A DNA stretch of 21,894 nucleotides from a virus (IMGVR_UViG_2737471819_000029:1-21894); one strand, 5' to 3'. Counted from the stretch's first letter, positions 1,594-20,546 are shown. Numbers and translations are program-made. The notes: generated by a model not told the origin, from the sequence alone.

Positions 1594-2136
1594 ATGAATT
1601 ATCCAACTATCGTTAACGGCATCGATTTCCGAGAACTGATTTTTGTGGCAAACAACGATCCGGTTACAGATTCTTTTATGGTGGCAAAAGCATTTGGAAA
1701 GCTGCCGAAGAACGTGGTTCGTGACATTGAGCGAACCATAGAAGCTTGCCCTCCTGAGTTTGATACAAAGCTCAACTTTGAGCTTTGCTATAAAAACAAT
1801 GAGTTACAGAATGGTAAGCCGCAAAAATTCTACCGTCTCCGCAAGGATGGGTTGATGCTTTTGGTTATGTCCTACACCAAAAAAGAAGCAATGCGTATCA
1901 AAATTGCTTACATCAACGCATTCAACTGGATGTACGCCATGCTTCAGGTTGGTCATCGTCAATTTGAAGAAGAGAGAAATGCCGTAATGCTGGAGTACAT
2001 GAAAGAGAAGGATGTTGCCAGCATGTCAGGTCGCCTGCTTAATCGCTGGGGAAAAATTAAGAAGCCTCAGCTGCTGGCGAGAATTGAACGCCTTGAACAG
2101 CACGGGCAAACCGTAATCCCCGGACTCACCAATTAA
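1594..2136 (+). CDS. Rha-family phage regulatory protein (putative antirepressor-like), 180 aa
   Basis: Good SD (AAGGTGAG) 7 nt upstream of ATG; N-terminal segment ...AKAFGKLPKNVVRDIERTI resembles the conserved FGK-x-H-x-NV-(L/I)-RDI region of Rha (Phage_pRha) proteins as I recall it. Family assignment is from memory, not a search. Confidence 0.45.
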   Translation: MNYPTIVNGIDFRELIFVANNDPVTDSFMVAKAFGKLPKNVVRDIERTIEACPPEFDTKLNFELCYKNNELQNGKPQKFYRLRKDGLMLLVMSYTKKEAMRIKIAYINAFNWMYAMLQVGHRQFEEERNAVMLEYMKEKDVASMSGRLLNRWGKIKKPQLLARIERLEQHGQTVIPGLTN

Positions 2137-16018: not shown

Positions 16019-16348
16019 CTATTTAATTCTCTTTTCAATGGCTGCAATTATTGCTTTTCCTGATGTTTCAGGAGATTTTGTAGCCATATAAGACGAAAAA
16101 ATCATGTCGGTCATTCTTTCATAACTTACTATTTCCCACTTAGCCAATGCATGGGACAGTTTGTAGTTGTCATCAGTTAGTGCCCTTATGGAATTTTTTA
16201 AGTGTTTATTCTCTTCTGTTAATCGCGCAATTTTTGTATCAATTTCATGTGAGCGATCTAATTCCTTAACCTGTTTCTTGAGGGCAGCTAACCCTGCATA
16301 TAGTACGCAACAGGATATCCCAAGAGCGAGTACGACTATTTCTAACAC
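16019..16348 (-). CDS. Hypothetical membrane-anchored coiled-coil protein (~110 aa; GTG start after a strong SD). The 181-aa track ORF is this gene plus a spurious 5' extension.
   Basis: On the minus strand AAGGAGG (complement of 16354-16360) lies 5 nt upstream of an in-frame GTG (16346-16348). Product begins VLEIVVLALGISCCVLYAGLAAL (one TM helix) followed by heptad-like charged sequence (KKQVKELDRSHEIDTKIARLTEENKHLKNSIRALTDDNYKL...). The upstream part of the long ORF looks like antisense of the neighbouring gene. Confidence 0.5.
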   Translation of the reverse strand: MLEIVVLALGISCCVLYAGLAALKKQVKELDRSHEIDTKIARLTEENKHLKNSIRALTDDNYKLSHALAKWEIVSYERMTDMIFSSYMATKSPETSGKAIIAAIEKRIK

Positions 16349-16378
16349 ACCAACCTCCTTAGTTTTTCGCAGGATACC

Positions 16379-16744
16379 ATGAAAAAAGTTAACATTGGAA
16401 ACGTACCAAAGATGCTCGTTCCGCTCTTTGAGAGCGGTACAATTGTGTTTTGTAGAGACTTTCCAGAATGGCAACGCCTGCATCAAAAACTTGGCGTTGA
16501 CGTGCATGACTCGGACGCCAACGGAGCGTCTCATACAATGAGTAGCGAGAATGGTGTTTTGCATGTGATAGGCGTGTTCAATGGCAAACTATCTACTATT
16601 GCCCATGAGTGCGCTCACATGGCATTCGATATCTGCTCAAGGGTAGGTGTTGATGTTGAACCAGGAAGAGCCAACGAGACTTACTGCTACTTAATGAGCA
16701 GGCTTGTTGAGTTCTGCGAGCGACATATCAAAAAGCCGGAGTGA
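16379..16744 (+). CDS. Hypothetical small HExxH-motif protein (121 aa), candidate zinc metallopeptidase-like protein
   Basis: Protein-like composition; contains IAHECAHMAFD (H-E-x-x-H); divergent from the membrane protein gene with only ~30 bp between start codons; weak SD (GGA). Confidence 0.5.
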   Translation: MKKVNIGNVPKMLVPLFESGTIVFCRDFPEWQRLHQKLGVDVHDSDANGASHTMSSENGVLHVIGVFNGKLSTIAHECAHMAFDICSRVGVDVEPGRANETYCYLMSRLVEFCERHIKKPE

Positions 16745-16751
16745 CCCGGCT
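16735..16751 (-). terminator. Putative intrinsic terminator for the small minus-strand gene (hairpin overlaps the 3' end of the HExxH gene)
   Basis: AGCCGG / CCGGCT 6-bp stem with 6-nt loop; on the minus strand it is followed by TTTTTGATA. Lies immediately downstream of the minus-strand stop at 16758. Confidence 0.45.
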
Positions 16752-16757
16752 TGATTA

Positions 16758-16937
16758 TTACTTTTTGCTGTCTGGAGTTCGCTTATCTAATACCCAGCCA
16801 TGACCTGGCTTTGTTGTTGGCGGAAGCCTTTCGTTGTCCTTGACGGTGGCAAAATTGTCTTTCTTACCGCCGCGCGGGCCAACTTCTTGGTATATTCCGC
16901 CGTTTTTTCCTGTGTTTTCACCTGGTTTTTTCGCCAT
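16758..16937 (-). CDS. Hypothetical small Lys/Gly-rich hydrophilic protein (59 aa from the second ATG)
   Basis: GAGG 7 nt upstream of the second in-frame ATG (MAKKPGENTGKNGGIYQEVGPRGGKK...); terminator hairpin immediately downstream; candidate -35 TTGACT (complement of 16997-17002) upstream. Confidence 0.45.
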   Translation of the reverse strand: MAKKPGENTGKNGGIYQEVGPRGGKKDNFATVKDNERLPPTTKPGHGWVLDKRTPDSKK

Positions 16938-17097
16938 GATATACCTCAACATACACCCGTTATTGGGCGATTAAATATTGATCTCATTTTATAAGTAGTC
17001 AATATGGCCCAGGTAAATGAAAAAATTAACCAATCGTCATCTGGGGTATCCGTAAAAACCCTTCAGTACATAACTACTGACAGATAACCAACGCAAA

Positions 17098-17122
17098 GAC
17101 CCAGCTTCGGCTGGGTTTTTTA
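17098..17122 (+). terminator. Strong rho-independent terminator inside a 330-bp non-coding gap (orphan on the + strand)
   Basis: ACCCAGC / GCTGGGT perfect 7-bp GC-rich stem with TTCG tetraloop followed by TTTTTT (17117-17122). Confidence 0.6.
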
Positions 17123-17267
17123 TGCCCAAAATTCACCGTAGCAACTAAGCGGTGATGGCCTTGATGGATAGCACTACGAAATTTTCGTAGTTCAAAAACC
17201 AAACAAATACCAACCGTCGCCATGCTGCGGCGATTCCTTGTATCTGGAGCAAATTAAATGACAGACA

Positions 17268-17762
17268 TTATCTAAAACAAGCAAACTCGCCATGATATTT
17301 TTCCCTGAATGCAATAGACATTAATTCTGCCAGCTCAATATCATCGGTATACCCAAGGAAAATAGACTTACCTTTTAGTTTGAACATAACTTTATATGTG
17401 TTTTTCCCTTTAAGAAGATGAACTCCTTTTATACCTGTATTGGATGATGAAACGCTGTTGGTTTTATTCTGACCTCTGGTTACTTCTCTTAGGTTTGAAA
17501 TTCTATTGTCATTTTTAACCCCGTTAATATGGTCAATTAACCCTTTAGGCCAGCATCCTTTCATATAAAACCAAGCAAGTCGGTGGCAAAGATACGATTT
17601 TCCATTAATCCGTATTGATAAGTAGTCGGCCTGTGAGTTCGTCTTAAATCCAGCAACCTTTCCGATACTGGAGCTACCAGAAGCTATCTTCCAAGTGAAG
17701 ACGCCTGTTTCTGGGTTGTAGTTGAGTGAAGAGGTTAATTCTTTATGAGTAATCATATTCAT
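17268..17762 (-). CDS. HNH endonuclease with C-terminal AP2-like DNA-binding domain (homing-endonuclease-like), 164 aa
   Basis: Motif LCHRLAWFYMKG...IDHINGVKNDNRISNLREVTRGQN (HNH_3-type H-N-N core) followed by GIKGVHLLKGKNTYKVMFKLKGKSIFLGYTDDIELAELMSIAFREKYHGEFA (AP2-like); AT-rich codon usage; start may be the second ATG at 17756. Confidence 0.8.
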   Translation of the reverse strand: MNMITHKELTSSLNYNPETGVFTWKIASGSSSIGKVAGFKTNSQADYLSIRINGKSYLCHRLAWFYMKGCWPKGLIDHINGVKNDNRISNLREVTRGQNKTNSVSSSNTGIKGVHLLKGKNTYKVMFKLKGKSIFLGYTDDIELAELMSIAFREKYHGEFACFR

Positions 17763-19477: not shown

Positions 19478-20546
19478 TTATACTGTAACTAAATTGTCTT
19501 CATTTCTATTGGTTTTTCTTTTTAATTTAAGAAAATGTATTTCAAAAAGATAGTATGATGCAATTGATACTATATATGCGATAGCAAACCCACATGCTAT
19601 TATCACAGCATTATTGTTTACCCCAAACAAGGAGGACATTTTGTTTGCAATTGAAAAACACAGCAAATGCCACATATACAAACCATAACTTATCTTTCCT
19701 GTAAATGTTAATGGCTTTAATGATAATGCTTTTGTTATTATTTGTTTTTTCCCTAGCACACTCCACTTGTAAATGAAAAAAATTGCAGATGAAAAAATCA
19801 TCCCAAACGCTGTAAACATATACCAGCATTTCCCAGCCCAATCTACAGGGTTCCAAAAAGCATTAAGACCAACAGAATTTATTCCATTAAGAACCAGCCC
19901 AACACCTGCTATAAAAGTTAAAAATCCTGATTCATATGCGTACTTCTCATCTTTTATCTTGGAAAACAGAGCGCCAAGAACTAACATGTCAATGCAACTG
20001 ATAAGAGTTACATTTACAATGTATGGGTTTCCATCAGTGATTTGAAATATAAAATATCTTGATATACTTGATGTTATTATTAGTATAATAAAAATCAGAT
20101 TCATATTCTTTTTGTTTATGAAAAATATGAATAGAGGCCAAAGCCAGTAAAATTGTTCTTCCACTGCAAGAGACCAAGTGTGCCCCAAAATTCCAGGTGT
20201 TGTAACATTTATTCCTATATAATAGTTATTGTAGATAAGTTATAAACCACAAATAACCATCCGTTGGTTTCCCAGTTGCAATTAGAAGAATAAAGTTAAC
20301 AAGTAGGTAAGCATAAAATAACGGGAATATTCTAAGAGATCTATTTATAAGAAATCGTTTAATATAGTTACTAAAACCAGAGTCTTTATCCTCGATAAGG
20401 ATTGAGGTAATTAAGAAACCAGATAAGCAAAAGAACAGCGGAACTCCAGACCAACCAAGAGAAAATCCTGAAACTTTGGCATGAAAAAGCATTACAATGA
20501 GCACCGCAATACCTCTCACACCATCTAAAGATTGTATATGTTTCAT
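19478..20546 (-). pseudogene. O-antigen acyltransferase (Acyl_transf_3 / Oac-like) interrupted by a single-base frameshift; two ORFs of 106 aa (20226-20546) and 236 aa (19478-20188, really open up to 20239)
   Basis: N-terminal ORF begins MKHIQSLDGVRGIAVLIVMLFHA...GVPLFFCLSGFLITS (typical family-3 acyltransferase start); second ORF contains WSLAVEEQFYWLWP (family signature). On the minus strand the frames read ...WFITYLQ-TAA and TAA-LIYNNYYIGINVTTPGILGHTWSLAVEEQFY; removing one base near + coordinate 20228 joins them into one ~350-aa ORF. Confidence 0.65.

What the first reader, a model, noticed from the sequence alone, without database searches (positions are those of the whole stretch)
16379..16744. 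Small HExxH protein (121 aa): candidate minimal zinc metallopeptidase, possibly replacing the antirepressor
The translation contains IAHECAHMAFD, a canonical H-E-x-x-H zinc-binding motif, in an otherwise globular-looking small protein. ImmA-type HExxH proteases in other mobile elements induce the element by cleaving its repressor. An HExxH protein sitting where P22 encodes Ant therefore suggests a protease-based antirepressor or immunity-modulating function. That is hypothesis only.
Basis: partly seen in the sequence, partly recalled or inferred. Interest (0 to 1): 0.65.

Follow-up and report, generated by a model that had tools for sequence, protein, structure and literature searches.

The report
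P22 hkcC: small conserved HExxH protein
The ORF is real and is the long-unexplained gene hkcC of phages P22 and HK620, a member of a large phage family of about 120-residue proteins with an invariant zinc-protease-type motif; it does not stand in for the antirepressor.

Summary
Bases 16379-16744 (+) encode a 121-aa protein with HECAH at residues 76-80, the only HExxH in all six frames of the window.

The gene is hkcC. It is 99% identical in P22 and HK620, where it has no assigned function. P22 carries it together with arc and ant. In 81 P22-like loci, Ant lies beside hkcC in 30 and is absent in 51. What fills the mnt/arc/ant position here is an HNH endonuclease gene. The "replaces Ant / ImmA-like" reading is therefore not supported.

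HkcC belongs to PHROG 1365: 546 clusters at 50% identity, nearly all stand-alone proteins, in both temperate and lytic phages. In 224 non-redundant members H76, E77 and H80 are invariant, E100 is present in 222 and Y104 in 208. The spacing HExxH-x19-E matches thermolysin.

Best reading: an accessory, late-expressed, cytoplasmic minimal gluzincin-like metallopeptidase with an unknown substrate. It usually travels with a convergent small gene, orf59a. A published P22 hybrid implies it is dispensable in the laboratory.

The parts
16379..16744 (+). hkcC coding sequence (121 aa plus stop); member of PHROG 1365
   Evidence: ORF. 99.2% aa identity to HK620 HkcC (NP_112089) and to the P22 sequence. 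phrog_1365 at E 1.7e-39. Intact in 81/81 loci, with 25 synonymous-only versus 4 aa-changing variable codons.
16371..16374 (+). AGGA, a possible Shine-Dalgarno element 4 nt upstream of the ATG
   Evidence: Read directly from the sequence. Weak, and inferred only.
16604..16618 (+). Codons for H76-E77-C78-A79-H80 (the HExxH motif) on predicted helix 71-89
   Evidence: H76, E77 and H80 invariant in 224/224 nr80 family members. Helix assignment from the AlphaFold model.
16676..16690 (+). Codons for E100-T-Y-C-Y104 at the start of predicted helix 100-116. E100 is the candidate third zinc ligand; Y104 is a conserved Tyr one turn later.
   Evidence: E100 in 222/224; Y104 in 208/224 plus 14 His. Spacing HExxH-x18-NE in 120 of 127 close homologues. 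The ligand role is inferred: coordinates of the model could not be inspected.
16733..16752 (-). GC-rich hairpin overlapping the hkcC stop codon, with its T-run on the minus strand. It is the terminator of the leftward orf59a transcript (t_mnt / tORF59A of P22 / HK620).
   Evidence: Annotated as a terminator in P22-pbi and HK620. The same arrangement is seen in a Rosenbergiella and a Pasteurellaceae prophage. It encodes the C-terminal KKPE of HkcC.
16758..16952 (-). orf59a-like gene. The ORF is 64 aa; the likely start is ATG 16937, giving the 59-aa P22 form. Basic (pI about 10), YjzC-like, convergent partner of hkcC.
   Evidence: phrog_3202 at E 1.3e-31; Pfam YjzC at E 0.0017, below the curated cutoff. 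98% identical to P22 orf59a. Found convergent to hkcC homologues in at least 5 different phage genome contexts.
16974..17002 (-). Sigma-70-like promoter (TTGACT-17-AATATT) upstream of orf59a
   Evidence: Identical hexamers and spacing upstream of the orf59a homologue in the Rosenbergiella prophage L010. This is a consensus match only.
16019..16348 (-). Divergent 109-aa protein with an N-terminal transmembrane segment and a coiled coil. It occupies the sieA / hkcB slot and is not homologous to either.
   Evidence: phrog_8100 at E 6e-70 over profile positions 1-109. Start GTG 16348 after AGGAGG, read. Homology to P22 starts at about 16345. The slot holds SieA, HkcB, this protein or nothing in the 81 loci.

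Best explanation
The ORF is hkcC, a bona fide accessory gene of P22-like phages. It encodes a soluble cytoplasmic 13.6-kDa protein of a large, phage-specific, uncharacterised family (PHROG 1365).

Proposed mechanism:
- H76 and H80 on one helix, together with E100 (and possibly Y104) on the following helix, hold a zinc ion.
- E77 acts as the general base.
- The protein therefore works as a minimal gluzincin-like metallopeptidase.

Proposed expression and role:
- No sigma-70-like promoter was found upstream, and the gene lies in the sense orientation of the late operon (gene 16 -> hkcC -> gene 9). It is most likely made late in lytic growth from the antiterminated late transcript.
- It probably cleaves a specific host or phage protein that is not needed for growth under laboratory conditions. 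A conditional function such as countering a host defence or exclusion factor is the likeliest class.
- It is not an antirepressor substitute.

Shown: the gene is real, the four residues are conserved, the fold prediction is confident, the family is widespread, and hkcC occurs independently of ant.
Inferred: zinc binding, peptidase chemistry, late expression and the nature of the target.
For: Identity with hkcC:
-. PMC2629481 lists hkcC and 59a as the two genes of unknown function in the P22 'ant moron'.

Purifying selection:
-.

Family size:
- 546 clusters at 50% identity with E<=1e-3, nearly all stand-alone proteins of 105-140 aa.
- All 131 tested members fall in phrog_1365.

Conservation:
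- H76, E77 and H80 in 224/224; E100 in 222/224; G49 in 222; Y104 in 208 plus 14 His.
- The H80-to-E100 spacing of 19 intervening residues equals thermolysin H146 to E166 (my own knowledge).

Structure:
- pLDDT 91.7, pTM 0.85. Order b-b-a-b-b-a(HExxH)-a(E100). This matches the generic zincin layout of sheet, backing helix, active-site helix and following helix (own knowledge; minimal zincins are discussed in PMC4559962).
- Foldseek against BFVD gave 27 hits at E<=1e-3. Most are unnamed phage proteins. Named ones are 'SprT-like family protein' (E 6e-5, TM 0.68), 'SprT-like' and 'Metalloprotease'.
- The family profile against PDB sequences gave 10 weak hits, of which the best 9 are zinc metallopeptidases: myroilysin at E 0.01 aligned over profile positions 3-109, BMP1/tolloid at 0.07, and peptidyl-Lys endopeptidase.

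Late-operon orientation:
- ST64T/epsilon34/L orf129-type copies lie between the lysis genes and the small terminase gene.
- The same position is seen in a Yersinia prophage, mEp044 and T7-like RSB3.
- No sigma-70-like site lies upstream of hkcC on the + strand here or in two other contexts.

Accessory status:
- Absent from Sf6 (one search found no Shigella phage hits).
- P22 hybrid UB-2464 replaced the whole 16-9 interval with the 836 bp of phage L, yet gave 1e10 versus 5e10 PFU/ml for wild type (PMC10883804). Phage L and P22 each have a single family copy, L's being elsewhere in its genome.
Against: - hhalign against E. coli SprT gives a probability of only 4-10%.
- Pfam SprT-like matches in family members cover about 17 residues around HExxH and score 12-16 bits against a 25.6-bit cutoff. 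NCBIfam gives only weak motif-level hits.
- I could not inspect the model coordinates. A crude covariation analysis places E100 opposite residues 85-86 of the HExxH helix, about 1.5 turns from H80. Its role as a zinc ligand is therefore plausible but unverified.
- No experimental data on expression, metal content or activity were found in the searched papers.
- Some relatives sit among apparent early genes of lytic phages, so late timing is not universal for the family.
Confidence: 0.55

Rival explanations
1. ImmA/IrrE-type protease that inactivates a repressor (C2, Mnt or Arc) and so takes over the role of the antirepressor or modulates immunity.
For: - HExxH plus a downstream Glu is also the ImmA/IrrE signature (own knowledge).
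- The gene lies in the immI neighbourhood. A Pasteurellaceae prophage keeps the order hkcC, orf59a, RHH (Mnt-like).
- One BFVD hit is named 'IrrE protein', but at E 9e-3 and TM 0.28.
Against: - P22 has hkcC and ant together. Ant is present in 30 and absent in 51 of 81 hkcC loci.
- HK620 and this window have hkcC with no mnt, arc or ant.
- No Peptidase_M78 hit appears in the window protein or in 131 relatives.
- No adjacent cognate HTH repressor gene is present.
- Homologues occur in obligately lytic N4-like and T7-like phages.
- In the ST64T and epsilon34 groups the copy lies far from the immunity regions, in the late operon.
Confidence: 0.04
2. A SprT/Wss1-like DNA-associated protease that removes proteins bound or cross-linked to phage DNA, for instance before packaging.
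For: - SprT-like is the only Pfam family hit repeatedly: 33 of 131 members, best E 1e-4.
- Two BFVD structural neighbours carry the SprT-like name.
- Several copies lie next to terminase genes.
- A few relatives carry Lys-rich C-terminal tails.
Against: - In the members examined individually, the Pfam hits are motif-only, spanning profile positions 62-79 of 108 in three and 63-96 in one.
- hhalign probability is 4-10%.
- The SprT third ligand, a His in the HG motif, has no counterpart; the family conserves a Glu instead.
- HkcC is near-neutral (pI 6.4) and has no zinc ribbon or basic DNA-binding region.
- The lysis-terminase junction is a general hot spot for accessory genes, so synteny is weak evidence.
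Confidence: 0.1
3. A zinc- or other metal-binding protein that is not a peptidase. It could be a stoichiometric binder or inhibitor of a host protein, or an enzyme with other chemistry that also uses HExxH.
For: - No structural neighbour among solved peptidases.
- 16 members weakly hit the NCBIfam 'aKG-HExxH-type peptide beta-hydroxylase' model.
- The known phage anti-defence proteins reviewed in the EVADES preprint include none described as a protease or peptidase.
Against: - The Glu of HExxH, the catalytic base and not a metal ligand, is invariant in 224/224. This is expected for catalysis rather than for metal binding alone.
- The weak NCBIfam hits are motif-level.
- 9 of the 10 weak PDB sequence hits, including the best 9, are metallopeptidases.
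Confidence: 0.2
4. HkcC and Orf59a form an obligate two-component module. HkcC would be a protease toxin or effector, and Orf59a a prophage-expressed antidote or inhibitor.
For: - The convergent pair shares a terminator and recurs in at least 5 unrelated genome positions: the P22-like 16/9 junction; the siphovirus tail tube/tape-measure junction in Rosenbergiella and Klebsiella; after lambda-P-like replication genes in a Pasteurellaceae bacterium; between the Mu-F-like and capsid genes in Rodentibacter. It is also seen in Xenorhabdus, Proteus and Serratia.
- orf59a has its own conserved promoter-like site on the strand opposite to the late operon.
Against: - 11 of 81 P22-like loci have hkcC without a detectable orf59a.
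- Nearly all orf129-type and lytic-phage relatives lack it.
- YjzC-like proteins occur on their own in Firmicute phages.
- Co-mobility may only mean that the two genes travel as one cassette.
- No interaction was tested.
Confidence: 0.1
5. Not a functional protein. The ORF would persist only because the DNA carries the promoter of the leftward membrane-protein gene (P_sieA) and the mnt/orf59a terminator.
For: The P22-pbi record annotates P_sieA in the first 31 nt and t_mnt in the last 12 nt of the ORF, and does not annotate the ORF itself.
Against: - 25 synonymous-only versus 4 aa-changing variable codons, with 81/81 intact copies.
- Homologues down to 23% identity keep the same four residues in entirely different DNA contexts.
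- The fold prediction is confident.
Confidence: 0.01

Closest known systems
HkcC of phage HK620 (NP_112089) and the unannotated or 'hkcC' ORF of phage P22
   Same: The same gene: 99.2% amino-acid identity, the same length, and the same position between the gene-16-proximal membrane-protein gene and orf59a.
   Different: Only the neighbours differ. Here the left neighbour is a 109-aa protein instead of SieA or HkcB. To the right, beyond orf59a, lies an HNH endonuclease gene instead of mnt-arc-ant.
Orf129 of ST64T/L, ORF47 of ST104, gp70 of epsilon34
   Same: The same family (PHROG 1365) at 38-39% identity, with the same HExxH...NE...CYL signature and the same strand as the late operon.
   Different: These copies lie between the lysis genes and the small terminase gene, not in the 16-9 interval, and have no convergent orf59a partner. 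Some phages (ST160, SE1) carry both types.
Gluzincins of the thermolysin type (HExxH plus a Glu 20 residues after the second His)
   Same: The same motif and the same spacing. The motif lies on a helix and the Glu on the following helix (thermolysin ligands H142, H146 and E166 from my own knowledge).
   Different: About 120 residues instead of more than 300. No detectable sequence or structural similarity to solved gluzincins. The ligand role of E100 is not verified.
SprT-like / WLM minimal zincins (E. coli SprT, Spartan, Wss1) and minigluzincins (proabylysin, PDB 4JIU)
   Same: Small zincin-type domains of similar size. SprT-like is the closest named Pfam family and supplies the closest named BFVD neighbours. 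Small zincin modules of this kind (WLM, SprT, minigluzincin) are discussed in PMC4559962.
ImmA/IrrE (Peptidase_M78) antirepressor proteases of ICEBs1 and Bacillus phages
   Same: A small HExxH metalloprotease encoded by a mobile element.
   Different: No M78 profile match and no adjacent cognate repressor. HkcC occurs with or without the real antirepressor Ant and in lytic phages.

Membership tests
PHROG 1365 (hkcC / orf129 family, unknown function) | Full-length match to the family profile | tested here: met
   E 1.7e-39 with residues 1-121 on profile positions 3-120 of 127. All 131 distant relatives also hit it.
Zincin / gluzincin metallopeptidases (clan MA) | HExxH on an alpha-helix, conserved across homologues | tested here: met
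   H76, E77 and H80 in 224/224; located in predicted helix 71-89.
Zincin / gluzincin metallopeptidases (clan MA) | A third zinc ligand Glu on a helix downstream of the motif | tested here: inconclusive
   E100 is present in 222/224 and lies at the start of helix 100-116, 19 residues after H80. Crude covariation puts E100 opposite residues 85-86.
Zincin / gluzincin metallopeptidases (clan MA) | Structural similarity to solved zincin catalytic domains | tested here: not met
Zincin / gluzincin metallopeptidases (clan MA) | Zinc binding and peptide-bond hydrolysis | not testable with these tools
   Needs biochemistry.
SprT-like (PF10263) | Domain-level profile match at or above the curated cutoff | tested here: not met
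   The window protein has no hit. Of 131 relatives, 33 hit weakly. In the members checked individually, three hits cover profile positions 62-79 of 108 at about 12 bits and one covers 63-96 at 15.7 bits, against a 25.6-bit cutoff.
SprT-like (PF10263) | Profile-profile similarity to bona fide SprT, and a third ligand His after HExxH | tested here: not met
   hhalign probability 4.4% against E. coli SprT and 10% against a 20-sequence SprT alignment. SprT's invariant PHG His has no conserved counterpart.
ImmA/IrrE (Peptidase_M78) antirepressor proteases | Profile match to Peptidase_M78 / DUF955 | tested here: not met
   Not among the Pfam hits of the window protein or of 131 relatives at E<=1.
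ImmA/IrrE (Peptidase_M78) antirepressor proteases | Encoded next to its cognate HTH repressor substrate | tested here: not met
   The neighbours are a membrane protein and a YjzC-like protein. In other contexts the neighbours are tail, head, lysis or terminase genes.
P22 Ant-type antirepressor | Homology to Ant, or mutually exclusive occurrence with it | tested here: not met
   No similarity. Ant co-occurs with hkcC in P22 and in 30 of 81 loci.
Minigluzincins (proabylysin / projannalysin) | Structural match to PDB 4JIU-type minimal scaffolds | tested here: inconclusive

The most novel reading that the evidence does not exclude
HkcC is the founding member of a structurally distinct minimal metallopeptidase family. 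Phages of many types would deploy it to cleave a host defence or exclusion protein, which would make it the first protease-type phage counter-defence factor. In the hkcC clade it would be coupled to the prophage-expressed small basic protein Orf59a as a regulator or inhibitor.
Probability: 0.12. Interest if true: 0.75.

Novelty: new variant of a known kind. Interest (0 to 1): 0.42.

Why it matters
P22 is one of the best-studied phages, yet hkcC and orf59a have remained without a function since the genome was corrected. Placing hkcC in a family of several hundred sequence clusters, with an invariant catalytic-type HExxH...E...Y signature, turns an ORFan into a testable enzyme hypothesis. The tests are an E77 point mutant, zinc content and a substrate trap.

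It also removes a misleading idea: hkcC is not an Ant substitute.

If the protein is an active protease with a host target, it would add proteolysis to the known ways in which phages interfere with their hosts. It would also define a new minimal zincin scaffold with no solved relative.

Tried and rejected
1. Pfam, NCBIfam and PADLOC scans of the protein found no family.
2. PDB sequence searches with two family profiles gave only sub-threshold hits.
4. SprT membership was rejected. I fetched E. coli SprT, built a 20-sequence alignment and ran hhalign; the probability was 4-10%. A check of ten relatives showed that Pfam SprT-like hits are motif-only.
5. A second family copy in the window was sought and not found.
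6. Domain fusions in longer relatives were not informative: only low-complexity Lys/Glu tails and one coiled-coil-like tail.
7. Literature searches for hkcC, orf59a, SprT-like anti-defence and phage metallopeptidases found only statements that the function is unknown.
8. The idea that HkcC matures the neighbouring ejection proteins or is a virion protein was considered and set aside. The gene is missing from Sf6 and from the viable P22/L hybrid.
9. An obligate toxin-antidote pairing with Orf59a was weakened by 11 of 81 loci that have hkcC alone.
10. The search for related loci with the broad alignment A4 failed because no stretch was conserved enough. The run with A3 on viral contigs returned only near-identical loci.

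Full report
**1. Observation**

The window has an ATG-initiated ORF at 16379-16744 (+) of 121 codons. Residues 74-84 read IAHECAHMAFD, so H76-E77-x-x-H80 is there as described. It is the only uninterrupted HExxH in any of the six frames of the 21.9-kb window. The protein is soluble-looking, with no hydrophobic segment, pI 6.4 and 13.6 kDa.

A longer minus-strand ORF (16019-16564) overlaps the 5' half. The real leftward gene starts at GTG 16348 behind an AGGAGG at 16359-16354. This gives a 109-aa product that matches phrog_8100 end to end. The two genes are therefore divergent and 30 bp apart, not overlapping.

**2. What the gene is**

The window is the late region of a P22-like (Lederbergvirus; HK620/Sf6-like) prophage of E. 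coli. In order it carries:
- lysis genes and a Rha-family gene;
- terminase, portal, coat and ejection proteins gp7/gp20/gp16;
- the tailspike with a P22 head-binding domain;
- a split O-antigen acyltransferase gene and the integrase.

The 121-aa protein is 99.2% identical to HkcC of HK620 and to the same ORF in P22 and about 50 P22-like Salmonella phages. In HK620 it is annotated hkcC, 'hypothetical protein'. In the P22-pbi record the ORF is not annotated at all; only the P_sieA promoter and the t_mnt terminator are marked inside it. The original P22 sequence AF217253 matches at only 72% over the same place. I take this to reflect sequencing errors that were later corrected, but that is my inference.

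[quoted passage not shown] A later annotation lists hkcC as 'Unknown' (PMC4837284).

**3.

In P22 the order is 16, sieA(-), hkcC(+), orf59a(-), mnt(-), arc(+), ant(+), 9. P22 therefore has hkcC and ant together.

I compared 80 near-identical IMG/VR loci plus the window. An Ant homologue lies beside hkcC in 30 and is absent in 51. The gene on the gene-16 side is SieA, HkcB, the 109-aa protein found here, or nothing.

In this window the mnt-arc-ant segment is replaced by about 300 bp, similar to the HK620 remnant region, plus an HNH endonuclease gene at 17268-17762 (-). hkcC is a constant of the region and ant is a variable.

**4. It is a real, selected protein**

All 81 copies are intact. Among 38 nucleotide alleles, 29 codons vary: 25 synonymously only and 4 with an amino-acid change.

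**5. The family**

- A word-indexed search found 32 and then, with a profile, 278 clusters at 90% identity. None is named and none has a Pfam domain.
- An exhaustive profile search of 1.84 billion representatives found 546 clusters at 50% identity with E<=1e-3, of which 151 have E<=1e-10. Nearly all are stand-alone proteins of 105-140 aa.
- All 131 distant members tested fall in PHROG 1365, 'unknown function'.
- The window holds only one copy.

**6. Conservation**

- HExxH is present in 124 of 127 close and 138 of 142 distant sequences. The exceptions are frameshifted or truncated fragments.
- In 224 members filtered at 80% identity, H76, E77 and H80 are invariant.
- E100 is present in 222, G49 in 222, G90 in 211, and Y104 in 208 plus 14 His.
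- Mean column identity is only about 15%.
- The family signature is [ST]-L-x-H-E-x-x-H-x2-F ... G-[VI] ... (N)-E-x-[FY]-C-Y-L.
- Nineteen residues separate H80 and E100, the same as H146 and E166 of thermolysin (own knowledge). The pattern is that of a gluzincin.

**7. Structure**

With a 60-sequence alignment, AlphaFold2 gives a confident model: pLDDT 91.7 and pTM 0.85. The elements in order are strands 11-13 and 21-25, helix 28-37, hairpin 49-56/59-66, helix 71-89 carrying HExxH, and helix 100-116 starting at E100. This order is what a minimal zincin would show (own knowledge; minimal zincins are discussed in PMC4559962).

Searches against solved structures found nothing.
- Foldseek: best E 0.07.
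- The AFDB library was unavailable.

Against predicted viral structures (BFVD) there are 27 hits at E<=1e-3. Most are uncharacterised phage proteins. A few carry the names 'SprT-like family protein' (E 6e-5, TM 0.68), 'SprT-like' and 'Metalloprotease'. More weakly there are 'IrrE' and 'BepA-like'.

I could not inspect coordinates. A crude MI-APC covariation analysis indicates antiparallel packing of the two long helices, with pairs 71-114, 75-112, 78-109/110, 79-106, 83-99 and 86-101. This puts E100 opposite residues 85-86 and Y104 opposite about 82. E100 as third ligand is plausible but not shown.

**8. Membership in named families**

- Pfam gives no hit for the protein.
- Among 131 relatives, 33 touch SprT-like. 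In the members examined one by one, three matches cover profile positions 62-79 of 108 at about 12 bits and one covers 63-96 at 15.7 bits. The cutoff is 25.6 bits.
- hhalign of the family profile against E. coli SprT and against a 20-sequence SprT alignment gives probabilities of 4% and 10%. The alignment is topologically sensible but not significant. SprT's third-ligand His has no counterpart.
- NCBIfam gives only motif-level hits. PADLOC gives none.
- The family profile against PDB sequences returns ten weak hits. The best nine are zinc metallopeptidases: myroilysin at E 0.01 aligned over profile positions 3-109, BMP1/tolloid at 0.07, and peptidyl-Lys endopeptidase at 0.64.

The kind, a zincin-type HExxH protein, is therefore supported. 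Membership in SprT-like, ImmA/IrrE or any curated family is not.

**9. Genomic context and expression**

hkcC lies in the sense orientation of the late operon. No sigma-70-like site lies upstream on its strand here or in two other contexts. In P22 the gp23-antiterminated late transcript runs from the lysis genes through gene 16 to gene 9 (established knowledge), so hkcC should be transcribed late.

The 38-39% identical orf129-type copies of ST64T, ST104, L and epsilon34 sit in the late operon between the lysis genes and the small terminase gene. The same placement is seen in a Yersinia aldovae prophage, in phage mEp044 and, after terminase-endolysin-Rz, in the T7-like Ralstonia phage RSB3.

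Other relatives lie among small genes of N4-like phages and near the left end of Pseudomonas phage GP100. The family is thus not tied to lysogeny or to immunity regions.

**10. A conserved partner**

Downstream and convergent lies orf59a: 16758-16952 (-), probably starting at 16937, basic, and weakly YjzC-like. A hairpin at 16733-16752 overlaps the hkcC stop codon and has its T-run on the minus strand, so it terminates the orf59a transcript. The C-terminal KKPE of HkcC is encoded by the A-run and the stem of this hairpin.

The pair, with the same hairpin arrangement, recurs in quite different places:
- the 16/9 junction of P22-like phages;
- between the tail tube/YdaY genes and the tape-measure gene in Rosenbergiella and Klebsiella siphovirus prophages;
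- after the lambda-P-like replication gene in a Pasteurellaceae prophage, there with an Mnt-like RHH gene;
- between the Mu-F-like and capsid genes in Rodentibacter;
- in Xenorhabdus, Proteus and Serratia genomes.

The promoter-like site upstream of orf59a, TTGACT-17-AATATT, is identical in the window and in the Rosenbergiella locus.

The pairing is frequent but not obligatory. 70 of 81 P22-like loci have orf59a. Almost all orf129-type and lytic-phage copies lack it. YjzC-like genes occur alone in Firmicute phages.

**11. Dispensability**

The family is absent from Sf6 (one search found no Shigella phage hits).

In the SieA study (PMC10883804), the P22 hybrid UB-2464 carries phage L genes 7, 20 and 16 plus the 836 bp between L genes 16 and 9. 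It has therefore lost P22 sieA-hkcC-orf59a-mnt-arc-ant. It still gave 1e10 PFU/ml against 5e10 for the parent. P22 has only the hkcC copy, and L has only an orf129-type copy elsewhere in its genome, so this hybrid should have no family member. That is my inference from two sources, not a stated result. It suggests a conditional, accessory role.

**12. Interpretation**

The best-supported reading is a minimal, cytoplasmic, gluzincin-like metallopeptidase made during lytic growth, with a non-essential and so far unknown substrate. I put about 0.55 on this as a whole. I put more on 'metal-dependent hydrolase-like active site' and much less on any particular target.

Rivals:
- The ImmA-type antirepressor reading gets about 0.04.
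- A SprT-like DNA-associated protease gets about 0.1.
- A non-proteolytic metal-binding or other enzymatic role gets about 0.2.
- An obligate HkcC-Orf59a toxin/antidote pair gets about 0.1.
- 'Not a gene' gets about 0.01.

None of the 268 anti-defence proteins covered by the EVADES preprint is described as a protease or peptidase. A counter-defence protease would therefore be new, but nothing here tests that.

**13. Novelty and score**

The gene itself has been known, as an ORFan, for 25 years. Three things are new:
- the size of its family;
- the invariance of a gluzincin-type signature, combined with the lack of any solved structural relative;
- the mobile pairing with orf59a.

This is a new variant of a known kind. 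It is a useful, testable annotation rather than a surprise. Interest: 0.42.

Noticed in passing
window 16758-16952 (-), promoter-like 17002-16974 (-), terminator 16752-16733 (-): orf59a-like small basic protein (YjzC-like) has its own promoter-like site and terminator on the strand opposite to the late operon, a classic moron layout. It travels with hkcC homologues into at least five unrelated phage genome positions. Its function is unknown.
   Followed up: partly
window 16019-16348 (-): A 109-aa protein with an N-terminal transmembrane segment and a coiled coil (phrog_8100) sits in the slot that holds the superinfection-exclusion gene sieA in P22 and hkcB in HK620. It is not homologous to either. 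Nucleotide homology to P22 begins at about 16345, right at its start codon, so the shared upstream DNA (P_sieA, inside hkcC) may drive interchangeable cassettes. It is a candidate exclusion protein.
   Followed up: partly
window 17268-17762 (-): An HNH endonuclease gene (PF13392, E 4e-15; phrog_99; PADLOC 'homing endonuclease') lies 20 bp upstream of the tailspike gene, in the place where P22 has mnt-arc-ant. Only 3 of the 81 compared loci have it.
   Followed up: partly
window 16953-17267: A non-coding stretch similar to the HK620 region annotated as remnants of P22 mnt and ant. It has a hairpin followed by a T-run on the + strand at about 17099-17124 and a second hairpin at 17215-17232.
   Followed up: no
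window 19481-20188 (-) and 20229-20546 (-): An Acyl_transf_3 (O-antigen acetylase-type) gene is split into two ORFs covering profile positions 2-98 and 122-325. It is probably a disrupted lysogenic-conversion gene or a sequencing error.
   Followed up: partly
window 1594-2136 (+): A Rha-family regulatory protein (Phage_pRha plus the ORF11CD3 domain) is encoded between the lysis and terminase genes. This is the same junction where other P22-like phages carry the orf129-type relative of hkcC.
   Followed up: no
L001 (P22-pbi AF527608) 2501-2866; AF217253: Several P22 reference records do not annotate hkcC at all. The original P22 sequence AF217253 matches the protein at only 72% over the same place, which I infer reflects sequencing errors. 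This probably explains why the gene is easily overlooked.
   Followed up: partly
window 16730-16744: The last codons of hkcC (K-K-P-E-stop) are encoded by the A-run and stem of the minus-strand terminator. The C-terminal KKP[EA] shared by many homologues may therefore reflect conservation of the terminator rather than of the protein.
   Followed up: partly
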